A stretch of DNA of 61,368 nt, the filler included, from Squatina squatina (Eukaryota): NCBI GenBank assembly GCA_031763465.1. It is 4 parts of 4 records of this genome, joined end to end, with 100 filler letters (N's around TTAATTAATTAA, not from the genome) between each part and the next. Parts side by side here need not be neighbours in the genome. Positions count along the whole stretch, not along the records: positions 46,315 to 61,368 come from JARFOE010000080.1; 3 more parts are not named here. One strand, 5' to 3'. A program made the translations under genes and the position numbers. Below, in pieces: positions 14,591-59,549 of this stretch; position 1 is the stretch's first letter, and every line of letters begins with the position of its first letter. The notes below the pieces were generated by a model that worked only from the letters and a program-made list of their open reading frames with translations, made no database searches and was not told the DNA's origin.

Positions 14591-14690
14591 NNNNNNNNNN
14601 NNNNNNNNNNNNNNNNNNNNNNNNNNNNNNNNNNTTAATTAATTAANNNNNNNNNNNNNNNNNNNNNNNNNNNNNNNNNNNNNNNNNNNN
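14591..14690. other. Artificial scaffold-joining linker
   Basis: N44-TTAATTAATTAA-N44, with stops in all six frames. Confidence 0.97.
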
Positions 14691-27402: not shown

Positions 27403-27502
27403 NNNNNNNNNNNNNNNNNNNNNNNNNNNNNNNNNNNNNNNNNNNNTTAATTAATTAANNNNNNNNNNNNNNNNNNNNNNNNNNNNNNNNNNNNNNNNNN
27501 NN
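27403..27502. other. Artificial scaffold-joining linker
   Basis: N44-TTAATTAATTAA-N44. Confidence 0.97.
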
Positions 27503-46214: not shown

Positions 46215-46314
46215 NNNNNNNNNNNNNNNNNNNNNNNNNNNNNNNNNNNNNNNNNNNNTTAATTAATTAANNNNNNNNNNNNNNNNNNNNNNNNNNNNNN
46301 NNNNNNNNNNNNNN
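46215..46314. other. Artificial scaffold-joining linker
   Basis: N44-TTAATTAATTAA-N44. Confidence 0.97.
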
Positions 46315-47884: not shown

Positions 47885-48036
47885 GGTGCAATAGCATCTT
47901 TTAAAAATTTCAAAAATGGTTCGGTGATCATCAGTGTAAGGACTTGAAAACTAAGTTCCGTCATGCAATTGTTCAGCTCTCCACAGTCATCCTCCAAGCC
48001 AGGCAAACCAAGTGATGCAAATAACTCTTTATTGTT
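47885..48036 (-). CDS. Divergent anoctamin (TMEM16) exon, TM5-6 loop and TM6, copy A
   Basis: ttttag|NNKELFASLGLPGLEDDCGELNNCMTELSFQVLTLMITEPFLKFLKDAIA cc|gtaagt; 152 nt; C..EL..Q....M motif. Confidence 0.88.
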
Positions 48037-48123
48037 CTAAAATTAAATTAGATCAATGATTAGTACTTTGGAGTTCTTATACAACCGGCCACTTTTTAAT
48101 AAATCATCAGATGCATTACCTAC

Positions 48124-48233
48124 CGTTCTGAGAAATGCAATGTAAAACAGAGATGAGTAACTGTTGGCAAACTGGAAGGCAAATAACTTTATTATCAGAG
48201 CATCATTGTAATCGGTCTGAGTCCTGTAGTTTT
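48124..48233 (-). CDS. Divergent anoctamin (TMEM16) exon, TM5, copy A
   Basis: ctgtag|aa NYRTQTDYNDALIIKLFAFQFANSYSSLFYIAFLRT|gtaggt; 110 nt. An 87-nt phase-0 intron leads to the next exon. Confidence 0.92.
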
Positions 48234-49626
48234 CTACAGAGAAAAGAAAGAATGAAATAAGCAATAGCAGTGATACATTGCAAAGTGCTTTGGAACATCA
48301 AAGGATGTGTGTTAAGCAGCTATATAAATGTAAGTTCTTATTTCTATACATTAGTATCATCTTCTGGTAAAAGTTAGTGTTAATGATATTATAAGGTAAA
48401 ACCACACTGTGAATACTGGCATACAGCCACATTAATGTTAACACACCAGTAGACTTCAGGTTATTTTTGATTCCCTTATTCAGCCATTATAACATTGGCT
48501 TTGTTAGTTTTCCTCATAGGGATGTGCATCCCTTCCGCATCCTTCGACCTTTCCATTGTCCTCTGGATTTGTGCTNNNNNNNNNNNNNNNNNNNNNNNNN
48601 NNNNNNNNNNNNNNNNNNNNNNNNNNNNNNNNNNNNNNNNNNNNNNNNNNNNNNNNNNNNNNNNNNNNNNNNNNNTACAAAAGCACAACAGTTTATACAA
48701 GAGGATTGTCAGTAGTGACATTAAAATTAATATTTTGCCCATAGTTGTATAAATGCTCTGGTTAGTGCCTTTGGAAATAGCAAATTTTGTCCCCTTAAAT
48801 GAACTAAGTTGTACATTGTTGTTTTAATAGCCACATTTTTAAACAACTATGAATGAAATAATGGTATCATCGCAACCTATTTTATCAAGGGAAGAATCTT
48901 TTCATTCAGAAGTACAATGCATTGAAAAAAATTGAACAATTCATTATACAAAAATATTCAACTTCATCAAGGACTTTGTTGCTATTCAGTGGTGTATCCA
49001 GACTGTGCGATTAGTTAGGAATACAGGAATAAAGTCCACTTTAGATCCCGTCATTTATGCAGAACCTATACATAAAAAGTGATTCATAGGTTAGTCTTGT
49101 ATTTCTAGGCCCAAGTCAATCTGCAAATTTTGTCAAGTAAGTATCTTCATGTTCTACAAGACAGGGTATACTGGCACTGTGCAATGAATGCGCTTACACT
49201 TTGTCCATTTTATTTAAAAAATTTAAGAAAAACTAACATTTTCATGCCTGTGTAATGGACTAGCACATTTGTAGTCCTATTACAATTTTTGGCTGTGGAA
49301 AGATAGGAGTCCGGTTTGGTGTCCTGGAGTGAAACTGGCAGGTGGTGAAACAAATGTAATGGTTGTCTAGAGAAGCCGGTGGGGAACTTGCCCAATTTCT
49401 GAGTTGCTCCTCATTTTCAGGAGATGAGTTGTCTATGGAGAGCACATTTTGCGCTGACAAGTATCTCATCAATTAGGAGGTGGGAAATTGGGCGCTCTTC
49501 AGGTTAAGGGCCTGCAGAAGATTAANNNNNNNNNNNNNNNNNNNNNNNNNNNNNNNNNNNNNNNNNNNNNNNNNNNNNNNNNNNNNNNNNNNNNNNNNNN
49601 NNNNNNNNNNNNNNNNNNNNNNNNNC

Positions 49627-50071
49627 TCAGGACAAACCAAAGAGAAGTCAGCACTGAGTCAGAGTGAGGCTTTAAAGTCAAAAGTCACGTGATTTGATCG
49701 ATATGGAGCCAGGAGACAAAGTTAGGATGAAGCCCAGTTTCAGAGCTTTCATTAGCGCTCAAAGCTCAGAGATGAGGCATGTCAACGCCCAAAAAATGGG
49801 GCGTTGACACCTCTAAAGTTAAGGCACTGTAGCCTTGTCGAATTCTATGGCGGGCGCCATTTTGGGCGTTGCGCCCACTGATAACGTCATCAGGACACTC
49901 TAACACTGAACTTTGCGATTGTGGCCTTCAGGGGTTAGCACCCATTTAGTGCCAGCATTAACAGGGGATGAATTTCGCGCCAAAAAGTTTAACGCCAAAA
50001 ACCGGCGTTAAGCACTTAATGCCCATTTAACGCCATTTTAGCGCTAAAAGAAAATCGTGAATTGGGCGCCC
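49627..50071. mobile_element. MITE family B arm ending in AATTGGGCGCCC
   Basis: Reverse complement of 34263-34685. Confidence 0.85.
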
Positions 50072-53000
50072 ATAGACTTTTACAATACAGAAACAGGTCA
50101 TTCAGCCCAACAGGTCTAGCTAGTGTTGATACTCCACACACACCTCCTCCTACCTTACCTTATCTAACCCTATCAACATAGCCTTTTATACTTTTCTCCG
50201 TCATGTACTTATCTAGCTTCCCCTTAAATTCACCTGTGGTTTAAAATGGATTATGGTTTTAAAACCCCAGGACATTTTAATTTATTCCATTTTTCCATAT
50301 ACATTTACAGATGACAACATCCTAGCTCTTTAATTTGCATGTAAGCAGTTTAACTATAACCTACATATTAAAATATTAATTTCTAAATCCTTTTTGCACT
50401 CTGTTTCTACCCCTCGGAAGGATTCTTGTCAGTATACAAACCACTTCAGGCAGAAAGGCGAGGTGGTAAAGCCTGGAGGTGTCTTGAGTCTGTGCCAATG
50501 ATGCTCTGCGGGCAGCCTGTGCAACGTGTGTTTTCAGCTGGCCAATGTTAGTTATTTTGTCCATCCATGGTGTTGTGGAGCATTCTACGTAACAGCACAT
50601 CTGAGATATTACATTTTCCCAACTAAAGTACAAGTTTCAGCAACAGGCAGCTCCTGTGACTTCAAATTTGGGAGTTTACAGTGTTAAGCGTTCAAACAAT
50701 TGAGATTTCTGTGCTGGTCTTTCTGGTACTAGTTATACTTACCTCTTGGAGACAAGTGAAAATAGCCTTTCCTCCAATCCTGTCTAATCTGAATTTTAAA
50801 AATAGTTCCCACCTCTGACTGAAAGCACAATACCTGACTCGGCGGCCATGGTTTTATGGTTAAAAGGAATTCCCTTGCTATAGTGCTTGACACTTGACTA
50901 ACACTACTGAACTGTATTTCCAACCTTGGATTGTGCACTCTGTCACAGCTATGTAACCATGGCTCAGAATCACGCATCGATTAACTATTCTATAAGTTTC
51001 ATCAGTATCTTCTATGCTGTTGGATGTAATATTGGCATTATGCCAACACTCCATATGAGATGGGGTGGATGATGAAAGACCAATTGCACTTCACAAGTCA
51101 ACAAACTCCATGGAAGTGCATGAATAGTTCCTAAAGAAATAAGCAAGTTTCAGGCGTATTACCAGACTACAGTGAGGCCTGTATGATGTTGGCATGCCCT
51201 AGCACGTGTAGGCAGAATTTGAAGCACACGTATCCCTGTGTGCAGTGTGCACACTGAAATCTTCCTCATAGCCTAGCGAGCAATCTTGTTTTAATTGTTT
51301 GGCATTAGAGTGACCTGAAAGTTTAACCAAGTGCATGTTTCTGGCACTTAAATGTATGTCTAATTTCATCCATGTGTGTGAAATGGACCTTTTTCACACT
51401 TAAAAGAAATTGGCAGACACATAAGGGGGCCATTGCACTAATGAGTCCTTTCTGCAGGAAGAACATCTGGAGGATTATAGGTGGACGAACACATTGAAAG
51501 ATTTTGATGATCTATTTATAAAAGTCTTAACAGATAAAATGCTCCCCTTTATATGGATACAAGTCTCAGTTTCTATTTGCTGATCCCGACTTTATTTGTC
51601 AACAAGACTAGTTGCTATGCAGTTTCGTACAGGACTAGAGTATGACAAATGCATTTTTCATTTTACTATTCTTTGATTCATGAATGAAATGTGTTTTTGT
51701 TTAGGAACAATTTGTGCAATCATTTTCTCTGAGCGAGTAAAAATAAATTGGTTGGGTAAGTGACCCTTGCCACTAGTCTATAGCTTTTCTGTCTTCAGCC
51801 ATTGCTGCTGTTTTGAAGTTTCTATTTTTCAACATTACTACAAATGTTGCTTCTCAGAACTTTCCTCCTAAAGCCTAAAGCCCAAACCACTTGTGAGCAG
51901 CATAACGAGAGCGAGTTTATTGGAAAAACCATTATACTGAAACCAAAGAGCAACTTCACGGTTGCAATCAAGAGTGCAGTTGACAATTTATGACCTACTT
52001 CTTTATGGTTTTAACGCCCTTTAATTAGGCTAATCATTCCCAGATATGGATTGTTTCACACACACCCCTGTGCGTCACCAAGCTGGGTATTTAATCAGCA
52101 CTGGAAGTGATTAAGCACCTGTCCAGCATCAAGAACTGTTTCATCACAAAGATTGAGGGCAGTTTACATTGTAGACCAGCAGCCTTGATTTTCTGTGGAG
52201 TTCCCTGCTCCCCAATCTCGGGTGGCAAGAAATGGACTGGAAACCTCTTACCATCACTTCTGGAATTTTCTGCTTGATGTCATGGCGATCACTAAACAGG
52301 GCGGCATTAAGATTGTGCAAGTCAGGAGTTCTGAGCGGATCCAGTGATAAATTTAACAATCTTGACCTTTATCGATGTCGAGGCGCAAAACTGAACCTTT
52401 GCAAGGCAAACAGCCTCCTGCTGCAAAAATATATCCGCTCAAACAGAGGTAGCCATATTCACGTTCTGAAGAAATGGTGGATTGACCTGAGATATCAAAA
52501 CTGCCAAAGCAATGTTGGATGCAAGCAACAGGTGTGCAGGAGGAGATTTAAAATTAAAGGTACAGGGCAATCAATTCTACTCCTCAGCACTGCAACATTT
52601 AGAAGCTTTCCAAAAAATGAATCTCTTCTGAAACCCCCTGCAAGCAGCCCAAGTTTCGCTGCTGCAGTCTACCGAGGCGGGCAACAGACATTTTCTTACC
52701 CCCGAGGTGGTCTCCCCAGCACAGGTGGAAACATTGCTGGAAGCCGTCACCCGAGAAAATTTATGGTGGATCAGGGAGCAAAGCCCACACTGCCAACTTC
52801 ATGCAGAAAATCGTAGCGGCAGTTTCAGTCAGTGTGAACTACCATTTCAGCAGCATGTGAACTTTAAACAGAATGGGATTTTGTGGCTCTGGACTGTCAA
52901 TTTTAATGTACCTGGGAGTTATACAGTTAGAATTTAAAAACAGTTTACCTGCTTATTGCTTTAGTTTGCCAATTCTGGATCCTTAATATGTAAACAAATT

Positions 53001-53204
53001 CAGCAGCCATTTTGCACATACAACAGTGACTGTGCTTAAAAAGTAATTAGATGTGAAGTGCTCTGGGACATCCTGAGGACAGAATACTGTATCAAGTTAT
53101 TTGTTTCTATACTGAACTGACTAAACACAAGTGATTTGAAATATAAAAAATAAACACAAATTTTGAATGATTTACCATAACATTGCAAGTGTTCAAAGAC
53201 TTAC

Positions 53205-53356
53205 GGTATGAAAATATCTGTCAGAAATTTGGGACACAGTTTGAAGATCATGAATATAAAGACCTGAATACCAAGCTCTGTCATACAATTGTTCAGCACT
53301 CCACAATTATCTTCAAAATCAGTTAGTCCAATCATTTGAAAAAACTTTTGATTGTT
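53205..53356 (-). CDS. Divergent anoctamin (TMEM16) exon, TM5-6 loop and TM6, copy B
   Basis: tttacag|NNQKFFQMIGLTDFEDNCGVLNNCMTELGIQVFIFMIFKLCPKFLTDIFI cc|gtaagt; 152 nt, same length and phase as copy A. Confidence 0.88.
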
Positions 53357-53674
53357 CTGTAAATAAATGCAACAAAAGTCAATGGTTAATACATTTAAAT
53401 ATCAATGTAAATACTTGTTAAAATATTCAAATCACTAACCTGCCTGTCTGGGGTGGGGTTATGTGCACACAGTCGAATGCACCCGAGTCGGCATGTTGGA
53501 GCCTGCTTCTGGCGGTCTGACATTTTTGCCAGCTTAAACCCCCCACCCATGCCCAGATCCACACACTCCTCAATGTTAAAATTCCCGCACAGTGTTTAGC
53601 ATTCGACTTTGCTGTGGTGCAAATAGTAGGAAATCCACAGACATGAGCTCAAAATCTGGGCTGTCTCTATAGCA

Positions 53675-53985
53675 TTGAGACATTAAACTGACGCCTGTCT
53701 GCCCTCTCAGGTGGACAAAATAGATCCCAGGGCACTATTTTTAAGAAGAGCAGGGGAGTTCTTCCTGGTGTCCTTGTTAATATTTATTCCTCAACCAACA
53801 TCACTAAAACCGTTTATCTGGCTCTTATCTCATTGCTGTTTGTGGGAGCTTGCTGTGCACAAATTGGCTGCCGCGTTTCCTACATTACAACAGTGACTAC
53901 ATTTCAAAAAGTACTTCATTGGCTGTAAAGCACTTTGGAAGTCCGGTGGTCGTGAAAGGCGCTATATAAATGTAAGTCTTTCTTT
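53675..53985 (+). mobile_element. Deu-domain SINE (SacSINE1/AmnSINE1-like), core and tail
   Basis: CTGCCCTCTCAGGTGGAC..AGATCCCA.GGCACTATTTT.AAGAAGAGCAGGGGAGTT...GAAAGGCGCTATATAAATGTAAGTCTTTCTTT. Confidence 0.85.
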
Positions 53986-54318
53986 TGGAGCCTCCAGGAA
54001 TTGAAGGCAAATCTCCAGGATACTGCTGCAAGCAAACCCAGGAGAAAAATCACAGGGGCATTAAAAACTTAGTAAACTTCTGTTTACTCCTTATAAAAAT
54101 ATTGGGCATGGGGAAAAAAAATTGCTGTTTGACTGATAGTCAAGAATCATCCAATCGGGTAATGAAGAGTCTGTCCACTTTCCGATTGATGTCGGAATGC
54201 ATCATGAGGATGGACATGTTGGGCGACCAATGGTGAGCGTGTGGGCGGGGCAGTTGGAGGCAGGAGGTCATGTGACTAAACCCCCAGGAATCGGTCCAAC
54301 CAGAGTTGGCAATCCTAC
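53986..54318. mobile_element. Probable non-autonomous DNA transposon fragment ending GTTGGCAATCCT
   Basis: The end resembles the GTTGGCAACCCT termini of vertebrate non-autonomous DNA elements; recognised from memory only. Confidence 0.4.
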
Positions 54319-55088
54319 CCAGGAAGCTGGTGTTCCTTGTGCAGCACATGTGTATGAACACGTAACATGTCCATTGGAAATTTCGTGTNNNNNNNNNNNN
54401 NNNNNNNNNNNNNNNNNNNNNNNNNNNNNNNNNNNNNNNNNNNNNNNNNNNNNNNNNNNNNNNNNNNNNNNNNNNNNNNNNNNNNNNNGCGGACTTTTCA
54501 GGGACAGAAGATGGTTCCCTCATTACTTTTGGAATTGCATGAGGCCATATCAGGTTCAGAAGGATGTTCCGTCATAACAACTGGAATGGCAAGCTGGACT
54601 TACAGTCCCAGAAAAAAAAATGATTTGAGCTGTCCCTGCAGCTCTCTCTTTAAGAAGGCTGCCTAATAATTAACTCAGCAATATGGGGTCTTCTCTTCAG
54701 CAGTCCAAGCTATGTCCCTGTCCTAGACCCCCAAGCTGGGTCCCACATCTGCCATTCAACATCCTGATACTCTTACTTTCACCAGGCATGCCAGAGTTTG
54801 CAAATGTGGAAACTCCCAAGTTAAAGAGCTCCTGACCCCAGGCCCACCACTCCTGTAACAATAGCCTTGTTTAGAGCAGATAGAGGCCCCTCCCACTTAA
54901 GTCAAAATGGAAACACTGAGGACCTAGATGCATTCTGGTCCTAACCTAATTTGATGCCCTTCTGCTGCAGTCCAACCAGTATTAGGACAGGAATGTGCCA
55001 CTGAGAATTTTTTTGCCTTCTTGTTTTCACCACAGGAATAAGATATTGCTTGTTGTTGCTTCCCTTTTCCCATTACTGCATTACTTAC

Positions 55089-55198
55089 CTTTCTAAGAAA
55101 TGCAATATAAAACAGGGCTGTGTAACTGTTGGCAAAGTGGAAGGCAAACAGCTTCAATATCAGAGCATCATTGTAGTCAGTCTGAGTCCTGTAGTTTT
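55089..55198 (-). CDS. Divergent anoctamin (TMEM16) exon, TM5, copy B
   Basis: tctctag|aa NYRTQTDYNDALILKLFAFHFANSYTALFYIAFLRK|gtaagt; 110 nt. Confidence 0.92.
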
Positions 55199-55705
55199 CT
55201 AGAGATAAAGACAGTTTGTTAATACTAATGTTGTCTGGTACAAGTCAGTATCNNNNNNNNNNATAAAGTGAAAATTCTCAATGGCTCTTTCTCGCCTTAG
55301 TGAGTGGCTCTGGAGCACTGTTGATGTTCTATTGTTTACTGGGAATATAAAAAGTGTAAAGTATTATAATGATTAACAGTGTGTTGAACAGAGAGAAAAG
55401 CCAAGATCTGATACAAATGTAAAAAGGCGAGAAAGTCCGATTTAGTTCAGGATAACATGGATCTTAAAATTAGTGATTTAGGTTTTCTTCAGGATAAAAT
55501 TTCTAAACCAGAAGTCAATTTGAGGCAGTTTAGACTTAACAGATGCTAATGTTTTTACTGCATTTCAGAATTTCATAAATATGTTAAGTCTTAGCACACG
55601 TCAGTGAATGACTACTGCAATTAAGAATTAAAATCACTATTCAGTCAGCATTTTTTCTTTACATCAGATCCAGAAAACCCAGTAGCCAAACACCATAAAG
55701 ACTTA

Positions 55706-55870
55706 AAACTTGCATTTATATAGTGCCCTTCACAACCGCAGGATGCCCCAAAGCACTTTACAACCAATGAATCATTTTTGAAGTGCAGTCATTGTTGTAA
55801 TGTAGGAAATGTGGCGGCCAAGTTGCGCACAGCAAGCTCCCACAAACAGCAATGTGATAATGGCCAGATA
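55706..55870 (-). mobile_element. Deu-domain SINE 3' part, cut by gap
   Basis: Reverse-complement match to 53815-53980. Confidence 0.8.
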
Positions 55871-55970
55871 NNNNNNNNNNNNNNNNNNNNNNNNNNNNNN
55901 NNNNNNNNNNNNNNNNNNNNNNNNNNNNNNNNNNNNNNNNNNNNNNNNNNNNNNNNNNNNNNNNNNNNNN

Positions 55971-56080
55971 CCAACTGTGGTCAATAAAAAGCTCTCAATT
56001 GAGTTCGAAGTAGTTATTCTAATCCTTGCCCAGGTTTTGTAAATAACCACTGCAAGGGCACTGGCAAATACCCAGAAGAC
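55971..56080 (-). CDS. Divergent anoctamin exon, TM3 into TM4 (3' end lost in gap)
   Basis: taatacag|VFWVFASALAVVIYKTWARIRITTSNSIESFLLTTV..; phase 0 and in frame with the 57144 exon; V..Y(R/K) motif at the end of TM3. Confidence 0.82.
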
Positions 56081-57143: not shown

Positions 57144-57233
57144 CATCAGAATCCCCACTAAAAAAGAAAGTAGCATTTTTGTGCGTCGCAGAGTACCTGG
57201 GTAGTAAGGTTCAATTTCACCTGTAACTGGGTC
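57144..57233 (-). CDS. Divergent anoctamin exon, first intracellular loop into TM3
   Basis: tttgtag|DPVTGEIEPYYPGTLRRTKMLLSFLVGILM|gtaagt; 90 nt; matches the TMEM16 (N/D)P.T...EP..P motif. Confidence 0.88.
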
Positions 57234-58890: not shown

Positions 58891-59549
58891 ACATCAAAGG
58901 TCAGAATGTTCAAACTTCTCACTGCCACCCAACTGCACAATCAGCAGGACAGGTTTACATAAGTGAATTCCATTGCAAATGTGGACATAATCAAACAAAG
59001 ACAAAGGGTGACAAAAACATGATAGAGAAGTCAAACAGCATTAATGTGTGGGGGATACAGATAAATATATTCAAAAGCCTCAAATCAGGAGCCAAACACT
59101 TACTGAAAAGTTGAATTTTTCCATTTACTAGTAGCACAGGTTGCATGAAGTGCTTTCTCAATAATAATTTTCCTTCCAGCAATGTTATTACATACATCCC
59201 TGAAATAAAGCAATACAAGACATGGTTAGCTTTACCACAATGTGTGTTGATGTAGCTATCAGAGTATCATAAGTCACTGGCAAGAATACAGCCTAGTTGT
59301 AATAGTACAATACTTGAAAAGACCGTTCTGCTCCATTGGGCTTGTCCCAGAGTCCAGAAACATTTTGCTCACCACTCTGGCTCACTTACTTCTCAATCAC
59401 TTGCATTGTCATCCATGGAGCATGAGTGCTACCAGGTTTCAGATTTACAACAGAGCTCAGGACAGGTTTGCTAATATTGATGAGACTAGTGTTGGTTTCT
59501 GTGCAAGGTTGATAGGATTGACTTCTTTAGATCATGCCAGGAAATTGCT

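What the first reader, a model, noticed from the sequence alone, without database searches (positions are those of the whole stretch)
47885..55198. Two versions of the anoctamin pore module differ at both charge-tuning positions (Q/E versus H/K)
Seen: in TM5, copy A reads KLFAF-Q-FANSY and copy B reads KLFAF-H-FANSY; in TM6, copy A reads MIT-E-PFLKF and copy B reads MIF-K-LCPKF. Established: these positions align by eye with TMEM16A K588 (KAFLL-K-FVNSY, equivalent to TMEM16F Q559) and K645 (IMLG-K-Q), which shape pore electrostatics and anion/cation preference. Inference: copy A (neutral plus acidic) could favour cations or scrambling, while copy B (His plus Lys) could favour anions and be pH-sensitive. 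That would be a diversified, or splice-switchable, selectivity module.
Basis: partly seen in the sequence, partly recalled or inferred. Interest (0 to 1): 0.75.

Follow-up and report, generated by a model that had tools for sequence, protein, structure and literature searches.

The report
Shark tandem pair of worm-type anoctamins
The two versions are exons of two separate shark genes, squeezed together here most likely by assembly gaps; they belong with the worm touch channel ANOH-1 in an ancient anoctamin branch (likely TMEM16L, reported lost in vertebrates), and their different pore charges would likely tune chloride flow and calcium sensitivity differently.

Summary
The residues are as described and map to TMEM16F Q559/K616 = TMEM16A K588/K645. 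They are not alternative exons. A and B match two full-length paralogues, about 49-56% identical, found together in 13 shark and ray species; each forms its own clade. The window holds five B exons and two A exons on separate short contigs, no TM7-10 exons, and relatives' contigs suggest kilobases hidden in the gaps. Both genes, with chimaera, sturgeon and bichir relatives, nest among invertebrate anoctamins including Caenorhabditis ANOH-1 and show the marks of TMEM16L, reported lost in vertebrates. B has H/K in 17 of 17; A has Q/E in only 8 of 16 (E/K 4, E/H 3, Q/K 1); the ancestral state is likely Q/K. A's TM6 glutamate mirrors ANOH-1 K588E, which abolished worm touch-evoked chloride current. 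Functional divergence is plausible but untested; a clean cation/anion switch and His pH-sensing are doubtful. Interest moderate.

The parts
59104..59199 (-). Gene B exon, extracellular TM1-TM2 loop
   Evidence: tblastn; median identity 73% to B (12 of 17 with the segment) vs 45% to A (16); splice ends
57144..57233 (-). Gene B exon leading into TM3
   Evidence: median 90% to B (17) vs 53% to A (16); AG/GT ends
55971..56080 (-). Gene B TM3-TM4 exon, cut off by the N gap at 55871-55970
   Evidence: median 80% to B vs 70% to A
55089..55198 (-). Gene B TM5 exon, His at the TMEM16A K588 / TMEM16F Q559 site (codon 55139-55137)
   Evidence: up to 95% to B
53573..54336 (.). High-copy repeat inside the B TM5-TM6 intron (approximate limits)
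   Evidence: very high contig depth in these bins; inverted copy at 55705-55870
53205..53356 (-). Gene B TM5-TM6 loop and TM6 exon, Lys at the K645/K616 site (codon 53242-53240)
   Evidence: median 80% to B vs 56% to A
48576..49625 (.). Two 100-N gaps (48576-48675, 49526-49625) with an 850-bp contig between; the rest of gene B and the front of gene A are likely missing here
48124..48233 (-). Gene A TM5 exon, Gln at the K588/Q559 site (codon 48174-48172)
   Evidence: up to 100% to A
47885..48036 (-). Gene A TM5-TM6 loop and TM6 exon, Glu at the K645/K616 site (codon 47922-47920); 87-nt intron to the TM5 exon
   Evidence: median 73% to A vs 52% to B

Best explanation
The A and B exon pairs belong to two separate anoctamin paralogues, likely tandem neighbours duplicated before sharks and rays split, in the ANOH-1 clade (likely TMEM16L); both are predicted to be lipid scramblases that also pass ions, with B likely keeping ANOH-1-like chloride conduction and A's extra pore acid likely cutting chloride flow and raising calcium potency. 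Shown: separate full-length A and B proteins, their clades, the residue states and their mapping. Inferred: adjacency (shared chromosome size, consecutive accessions), exon loss in assembly gaps, the TMEM16L name. Predicted only: every functional statement. Odds: two genes rather than splice variants about 0.93; TMEM16L about 0.85; measurable A/B difference in the stated direction about 0.5.
For: Separate proteins: A-TM6 query returns 9 A-type proteins, B-TM6 query 16 B-type proteins; A and B both found in 13 species, 49-56% identical over about 750-850 columns in 6 of 6 pairs tested; same longest-contig length in 12 of the 12 species with a length for both; consecutive RefSeq numbers in Mustelus, S. 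torazame and Narcine. Trees: A (SH-aLRT 98-99) and B (100) each hold sharks and rays. Window: five exons type as B, two as A; no TM7-10 exon by tblastn with 15 queries or by HMM; 45 contigs, median 981 bp; in relatives a 5.9-kb contig runs 5.1 kb and a 4.1-kb contig 3.4 kb into the gap region with no A exon listed on them. Clade: 18 vertebrate rows (100) nest with nematode, chelicerate, spiralian, ambulacrarian and coral rows, apart from 24 other TMEM16 representatives (100); no hinge Gly in 122 of 122 clade members vs Gly in 17 of 24 outsiders, the trait Yuan et al. give for TMEM16L. C. remanei 841-aa protein has Lys at exactly 588 in the same TM6 motif. Function: K588E/A abolished ANOH-1 touch current; K645 or K588 to Ser/Glu raises Ca2+ potency of TMEM16A; their Ala mutants rectify; small residues at the F518 gate (A: Ala 16 of 16; B: Val 16, Ala 1) and Y563 gate (Ser/Asn/Thr), where Ala favours scrambling in TMEM16F; ANOH-1 promotes PS exposure. 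A carries exactly one acid at one of the two sites in 15 of 16.
Against: No expression or physiology for any vertebrate member. A's charge pair is labile (QE 8, EK 4, EH 3, QK 1), which also fits relaxed constraint. In TMEM16F the charge at 559 had little electrostatic effect, so B's His may act through its ring or not at all. This clade lacks the Gly hinge and has Pro and Lys nearby, so TM6 geometry may differ from TMEM16A/F; model coordinates could not be inspected. Loss of ANOH-1 K588E current could reflect folding or trafficking. None of my Macrostomum accessions matched the three TMEM16L accessions named in the preprint. Adjacency of the genes was not read from a genome. The piece table shows 32 of more than 567,000 pieces. 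Trees are quick IQ-TREE searches without bootstrap.
Confidence: 0.6

Rival explanations
1. Mutually exclusive TM5-TM6 exon pairs in one gene give a splice-switchable pore.
For: Equal exon sizes and phases, 262 nt per pair so that both pairs together shift the frame, canonical splice sites, no other anoctamin exon between the pairs.
Against: Homologous exons of paralogues share size and phase anyway. None of the 16 A and 17 B proteins scored combines the other type's residue pair, and the flanking exons differ between types. No downstream exon exists in the window for either pair. Pairs lie on different contigs.
Confidence: 0.03
2. In this species a real deletion fused gene B's front to a remnant of gene A, or A is a decaying relic.
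For: Only 2 A exons are present. Of the 6 listed differences in the A-TM6 exon shared by both relatives, 4 change the amino acid. No RNA was examined.
Against: Exons are missing at gaps inside gene B too, one cut mid-exon. A-TM5 is 100% identical to an A orthologue, frames and splice sites are intact. The difference table is truncated and the counts tiny.
Confidence: 0.07
3. Two real paralogues, but the residue differences are functionally minor; the genes differ mainly in expression.
For: Q559E/D and Q559H gave no clear electrostatic effect in TMEM16F, and Q559W left permeation unchanged. A tolerates K, E or H at the TM6 site.
Against: The TM6 site is basic in 84 of 84 invertebrate relatives and 5 of 5 non-elasmobranch vertebrates; His is fixed in 17 of 17 B; K588E abolishes ANOH-1 current.
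Confidence: 0.25
4. A is a cation-favouring scramblase and B a pH-gated chloride channel, a clean functional split.
For: Net charge differs (A -1, B +1 or more); K584H in TMEM16A titrates with pH; ANOH-1 with Lys there carries chloride current.
Against: Galeomorph and chimaera-type E/K and Heptranchias Q/K do not fit one A state; B lacks the K588 lysine of chloride channels; His titration in TMEM16F ran the other way.
Confidence: 0.12

Closest known systems
TMEM16L (ANO11) subfamily, Yuan, Zhu and Kadowaki, bioRxiv 10.1101/2022.04.22.489151 (parts 1-3 of 4 read, and passages; tables, figures and supplements not seen)
   Same: Taxon spread (cnidarians, spiralians, chelicerates, nematodes; no insect among the named hits), no TM6 hinge Gly, Met at the hinge and at the I551 site in anthozoans, both Pfam domains, five acidic Ca2+ ligands, sporadic tandem duplication.
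   Different: The preprint says it was lost in vertebrates, having sampled only human and zebrafish; here it is in sharks, rays, chimaera, sturgeons, paddlefish and bichirs, with an old elasmobranch duplication and acid or His substitutions at the two pore sites.
C. elegans ANOH-1 (PMC11830769 passages and sections 8, 10; PMC4464654 passages and section 11)
   Same: Same clade; same TM6 motif, K588 is the site in question; Q at the TM5 site as in gene A. It carries a Ca2+-independent touch-evoked chloride current and promotes PS exposure.
   Different: Those papers treat it as a homolog of ANO1 or TMEM16F; by this tree its vertebrate orthologues are these fish genes. A has Glu where ANOH-1 needs Lys; B has His at the TM5 site. 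C. elegans itself was not fetched; C. brenneri, remanei and tropicalis proteins stand in.
Mouse TMEM16F / ANO6
   Same: Best PDB match by sequence (E 7e-68) and by fold (TM-score 0.68, 24% identity); Q559/K616 equals the likely ancestral Q/K state.
   Different: No G615; N620 is Lys and N621 hydrophobic; M671 is Lys; gate residues F518 and Y563 are small; short TM8-TM9 loop.
Mouse TMEM16A / ANO1
   Same: Same fold and numbering frame; B keeps K645.
   Different: Neither gene has K588 or G644.
RefSeq 'anoctamin-7-like' models of cartilaginous fishes
   Same: These are the same genes.
   Different: Names are automatic and inconsistent (anoctamin-1, -2, -4, -5, -6, -7, -10-like for one clade).

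Membership tests
Anoctamin / TMEM16 | PF04547 (plus PF16178) above cut-off | tested here: met
   Orthologues P0034 (B) and P0011 (A): 397 and 407 bits, 86 and 85 bits. The window itself holds fragments only.
Anoctamin / TMEM16 | TMEM16 fold | tested here: met
   AlphaFold model of B orthologue P0034, pLDDT 88; all listed Foldseek hits are TMEM16F, K, A, nh/afTMEM16.
TMEM16L (ANO11) | One clade with cnidarian, spiralian, chelicerate and nematode members, apart from other subfamilies | tested here: met
   37 rows vs 24 hand-picked unnamed outsiders, SH-aLRT 99-100; quick tree.
TMEM16L (ANO11) | No Gly at the TM6 hinge; Met there and at the I551 site in the anthozoan member | tested here: met
   Gly in 0 of 122; Met hinge in Desmophyllum and Acropora rows; Met at I551 site in 6 of 6 coral-type rows; criteria.
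TMEM16L (ANO11) | Five acidic Ca2+ ligands in TM6-8 | tested here: met
   Kept in B (15-17 of 17, rest truncated) and in 9 of 16 A; 7 ray and skate-type A lack the E670 equivalent. Only the TM6 Asp is visible in the window.
TMEM16L (ANO11) | Grouping with the preprint's named reference proteins | tested here: inconclusive
   Same species and duplicates appear (Biomphalaria, Centruroides, Macrostomum), but none of 5 Macrostomum PAA accessions seen equals the 3 named, and LOC ids could not be linked; supplement closed.
ANO7 / TMEM16G (RefSeq label) | Orthology to ANO7 | tested here: inconclusive
   No named ANO7 was in hand. Outsiders with the Gly-Lys-Gln hinge and an ANO7-like motif (label recalled) fall outside the clade, and named best hits after fishes are invertebrates, not vertebrate ANO7: points against.
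TMEM16A/B chloride channels | K588 and G644 | tested here: not met
   Q/E/H at 588 and no Gly in all 33 A and B proteins.
Mutually exclusive exon module | Both variants spliced to the same flanking exons | tested here: not met
   A and B variants sit in different full-length proteins; no transcript of this species was seen.
Ca2+-activated scramblase or mechanosensitive anion channel | Measured scrambling, current, selectivity | not testable with these tools
   Needs expression and recording.

The most novel reading that the evidence does not exclude
Gene B is a vertebrate ANOH-1-like, calcium-independent or force-gated chloride channel, whose conserved lysines beside the calcium site stand in for bound calcium, kept in fishes with ampullary electroreceptors and used in lateral-line organs; gene A is its natural charge-reversed partner, having placed one acid at either pore site repeatedly.
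Probability: 0.08. Interest if true: 0.85.

Novelty: new variant of a known kind. Interest (0 to 1): 0.5.

Why it matters
It would correct the view that TMEM16L is absent from vertebrates and identify the likely true vertebrate orthologues of worm ANOH-1, which is now interpreted through ANO1 or ANO6. Sharks and rays would supply a natural series of charge states (H/K, Q/E, E/K, E/H, Q/K) at the two best-studied pore sites on one scaffold, making the channel-versus-scramblase and calcium-coupling questions directly testable without designed mutants. The splice-switch idea, which would have been more striking, does not hold.

Tried and rejected
Splice switch: rejected (see rivals). Whole genome: none held, so missing exons could not be sought elsewhere and synteny not read. 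A-TM6 exon alone against PDB sequences: no hit; mapping came from the full-length orthologue. Sequencing runs: no RNA holder listed; the four laid runs are contigs of relatives and say nothing on expression; parts without cover prove nothing. First tblastn failed on a gap setting, rerun. The careful tree did not finish; quick trees are reported. The TM8-9 loop count failed for 9 of 14 outsiders and is only a hint; its F518 column was off by one and was redone. Chimaera position (A, B or pre-duplication) unresolved. Electroreceptor link: paddlefish lateral-line supplement has no anoctamin (PMC5429088, 1 file); the sturgeon list has one ampullary-organ-high transcript labelled ANO4 (PMC7720607 file 2) that cannot be assigned to this clade. 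No teleost, gar, lungfish, coelacanth, amphibian, amniote or lamprey member appeared among the 120 of 231 listed hits; most of the 150 representatives are unnamed, so absence is weak. Literature: searches listed no paper on this clade in fishes (listings only; the library lacks most subscription journals, and the journal version of the preprint was not seen). Earlier scan findings: none.
Full report
Observation. The four peptides are on the minus strand as quoted. They lie in four intact exons with canonical splice ends: B-TM5 55198-55089, B-TM6 53356-53205, A-TM5 48233-48124, A-TM6 48036-47885; sizes 110 and 152 nt in both copies. Nucleotide likeness is 88% and 70%. An ungapped match puts the TM5 residue on TMEM16F 559 and TMEM16A(ac) 588; the TM6 residue aligns to TMEM16F K616, equal to TMEM16A K645 by the offset in the Fig. 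3 legend of Yuan et al..

Two genes, not two splice forms. The A-TM6 exon retrieves 9 proteins (of 26 candidates) at 67-80% identity; the B-TM6 exon retrieves 16 others (of 16) at 80-88%. Both types occur in 13 species. Within species A and B are 49-56% identical (6 pairs). In both trees A and B are separate clades, each with sharks and rays, so the duplication predates that split; sturgeon, paddlefish and bichir proteins are sister to them and the single chimaera cluster found is unresolved. In the window, the exons at 59.2, 57.2 and 56.0 kb and the 55.2/53.3 kb pair type as B, the 48 kb pair as A.

Why they look adjacent. The window is 45 contigs of median 981 bp joined by N runs. The A pair sits on its own 2.3-kb contig, two gaps from B-TM6. 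No TM7-10 exon of either gene and no other A exon was found, and B also lacks internal exons at gaps, one being cut mid-exon. Contigs of two unnamed relatives were laid (32 pieces listed of over 567,000): none listed joins A to B; one 5,855-letter contig runs 5.1 kb below position 50406 and one 4,127-letter contig 3.4 kb below 48841 with no A exon listed on them. So the gaps likely hide kilobases. The A Glu codon is not among the listed differences in these relatives, while 4 of 6 shared differences in that exon are amino-acid changing; a decaying A in this species is not excluded.

Which family. A search with the C-terminal half of an A protein lists, after fishes, molluscs, echinoderms, hemichordates, corals, flatworms and chelicerates at 42-53% identity (120 of 231 hits shown). 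The profile search ranks three fish clusters first. In a 61-row tree the 18 vertebrate rows nest with those invertebrates and two nematode-type rows, apart from 24 outsiders that I picked for their different motifs. Yuan et al. (bioRxiv 10.1101/2022.04.22.489151; parts 1-3 of 4 read) define TMEM16L as ancient, kept in some chelicerates and nematodes, lost in vertebrates and insects, lacking the TM6 hinge Gly, with Met there and at the I551 site in the anemone protein; their vertebrates were human and zebrafish. All these marks are met, but no accession matched and their supplement is closed, so the name is inferred. One representative is Caenorhabditis brenneri; the C. remanei long form has Lys at 588 in this TM6 motif, and in the short forms Arg falls at the offsets of R607 and R614 named in the worm paper's strain list. 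This identifies the ANOH-1 group.

Residue states. B: His/Lys in 17 of 17. A: Q/E 8 (sawshark, rays, skate-type), E/K 4, E/H 3, Q/K 1; never two acids. Other vertebrates: Q/K 4, E/K 1 (chimaera). Invertebrates: Q/K 71 of 84, TM6 basic in 84 of 84. So Q/K, as in TMEM16F, is likely ancestral; His is a fixed B change; A is labile but nearly always holds one acid. The whole clade also has Lys/Arg at TMEM16F N620, a calcium ligand, and Lys at M671, neither seen in 24 outsiders, and small residues at the F518 and Y563 gate sites.

Likely working. From published mutants: K588A and K645A hinder chloride entry in TMEM16A (PMC5470873 passages); Ser or Glu there raises calcium potency, more for 645 (PMC6195346 section 9); ANOH-1 K588E or K588A gave no touch current, a current that is chloride-carried and calcium-independent (PMC11830769 sections 8, 10); ANOH-1 also promotes PS exposure (PMC4464654 section 11); Ala at the gate and Asn at 588 favour scrambling (PMC8640346 passages). 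I therefore predict that both genes scramble and pass ions, B retaining ANOH-1-like chloride conduction and Q/E-type A conducting less chloride with higher calcium potency. Against: in TMEM16F, charge at 559 showed no clear electrostatic effect and His titrated the opposite way, though K584H titrates in TMEM16A (PMC6445582 passages and section 18). Nothing functional is shown for these genes.

Novelty. The genes exist as automatic RefSeq models under assorted names. Searches for TMEM16L, ANO11, and anoctamin with shark, elasmobranch or cartilaginous fish listed nothing on this clade in vertebrates (listings only). The fishes that keep it are ones I recall as having ampullary electroreceptors, but other electroreceptive groups were not found and two transcriptome supplements gave nothing assignable. 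Verdict: observation confirmed, splice switch rejected, paralogue divergence real, function untested; new variant of a known kind, interest 0.5.

Noticed in passing
proteins (not in window except B-TM6/A-TM6 Lys): Clade-wide Lys/Arg at the TMEM16F N620 calcium ligand and Lys at M671, absent from 24 outsiders; could neutralise the calcium site and bear on ANOH-1's calcium independence.
   Followed up: partly
P0009, P0010, P0016, P0045, P0050, P0052, P0053: Ray and skate-type A proteins have lost the TM7 calcium ligand equal to TMEM16F E670 while carrying Glu at the K645 site.
   Followed up: no
P0152 / P0282: Callorhinchus milii member with E/K, known only from C-terminal fragments; its place relative to the A/B duplication is unresolved.
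   Followed up: partly
window 35544-34870, minus strand: Long open stretch with a Sec6 (exocyst component 3-like) match, E 3e-18 for 35274-34870; lies between the anoctamins and the attractin-like gene.
   Followed up: partly
window about 27368-16948 and below, minus strand: Exons with EGF and C-type lectin matches, read by me as attractin-like 1 (name recalled).
   Followed up: partly
window 39294-38983, minus strand: GIY-YIG endonuclease fragment, likely a Penelope-type element (label recalled).
   Followed up: no
window 53357-55088: The B TM5-TM6 intron is about 1.7 kb here, but one relative carries the flanking stretches about 230 letters apart on one contig, implying a short intron like A's 87 nt.
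   Followed up: partly
window 14635-14646, 27447-27458, 46259-46270: 12-base islands between two 44-N runs; the one read (46259-46270) is an AT-only palindrome with stops in all frames, likely a scaffolding linker rather than genome.
   Followed up: no
window 46864-46661; P0002, P0001, P0004: The tail of the Pristiophorus A model matches a repeat here, and P0001 and P0004 carry long inserts: likely gene-model errors in the databases.
   Followed up: no
PMC7720607 supplementary file 2, row 526: A sturgeon transcript labelled ANO4 is in the ampullary-organ-high list; whether it is true ANO4 or this clade is unknown.
   Followed up: partly
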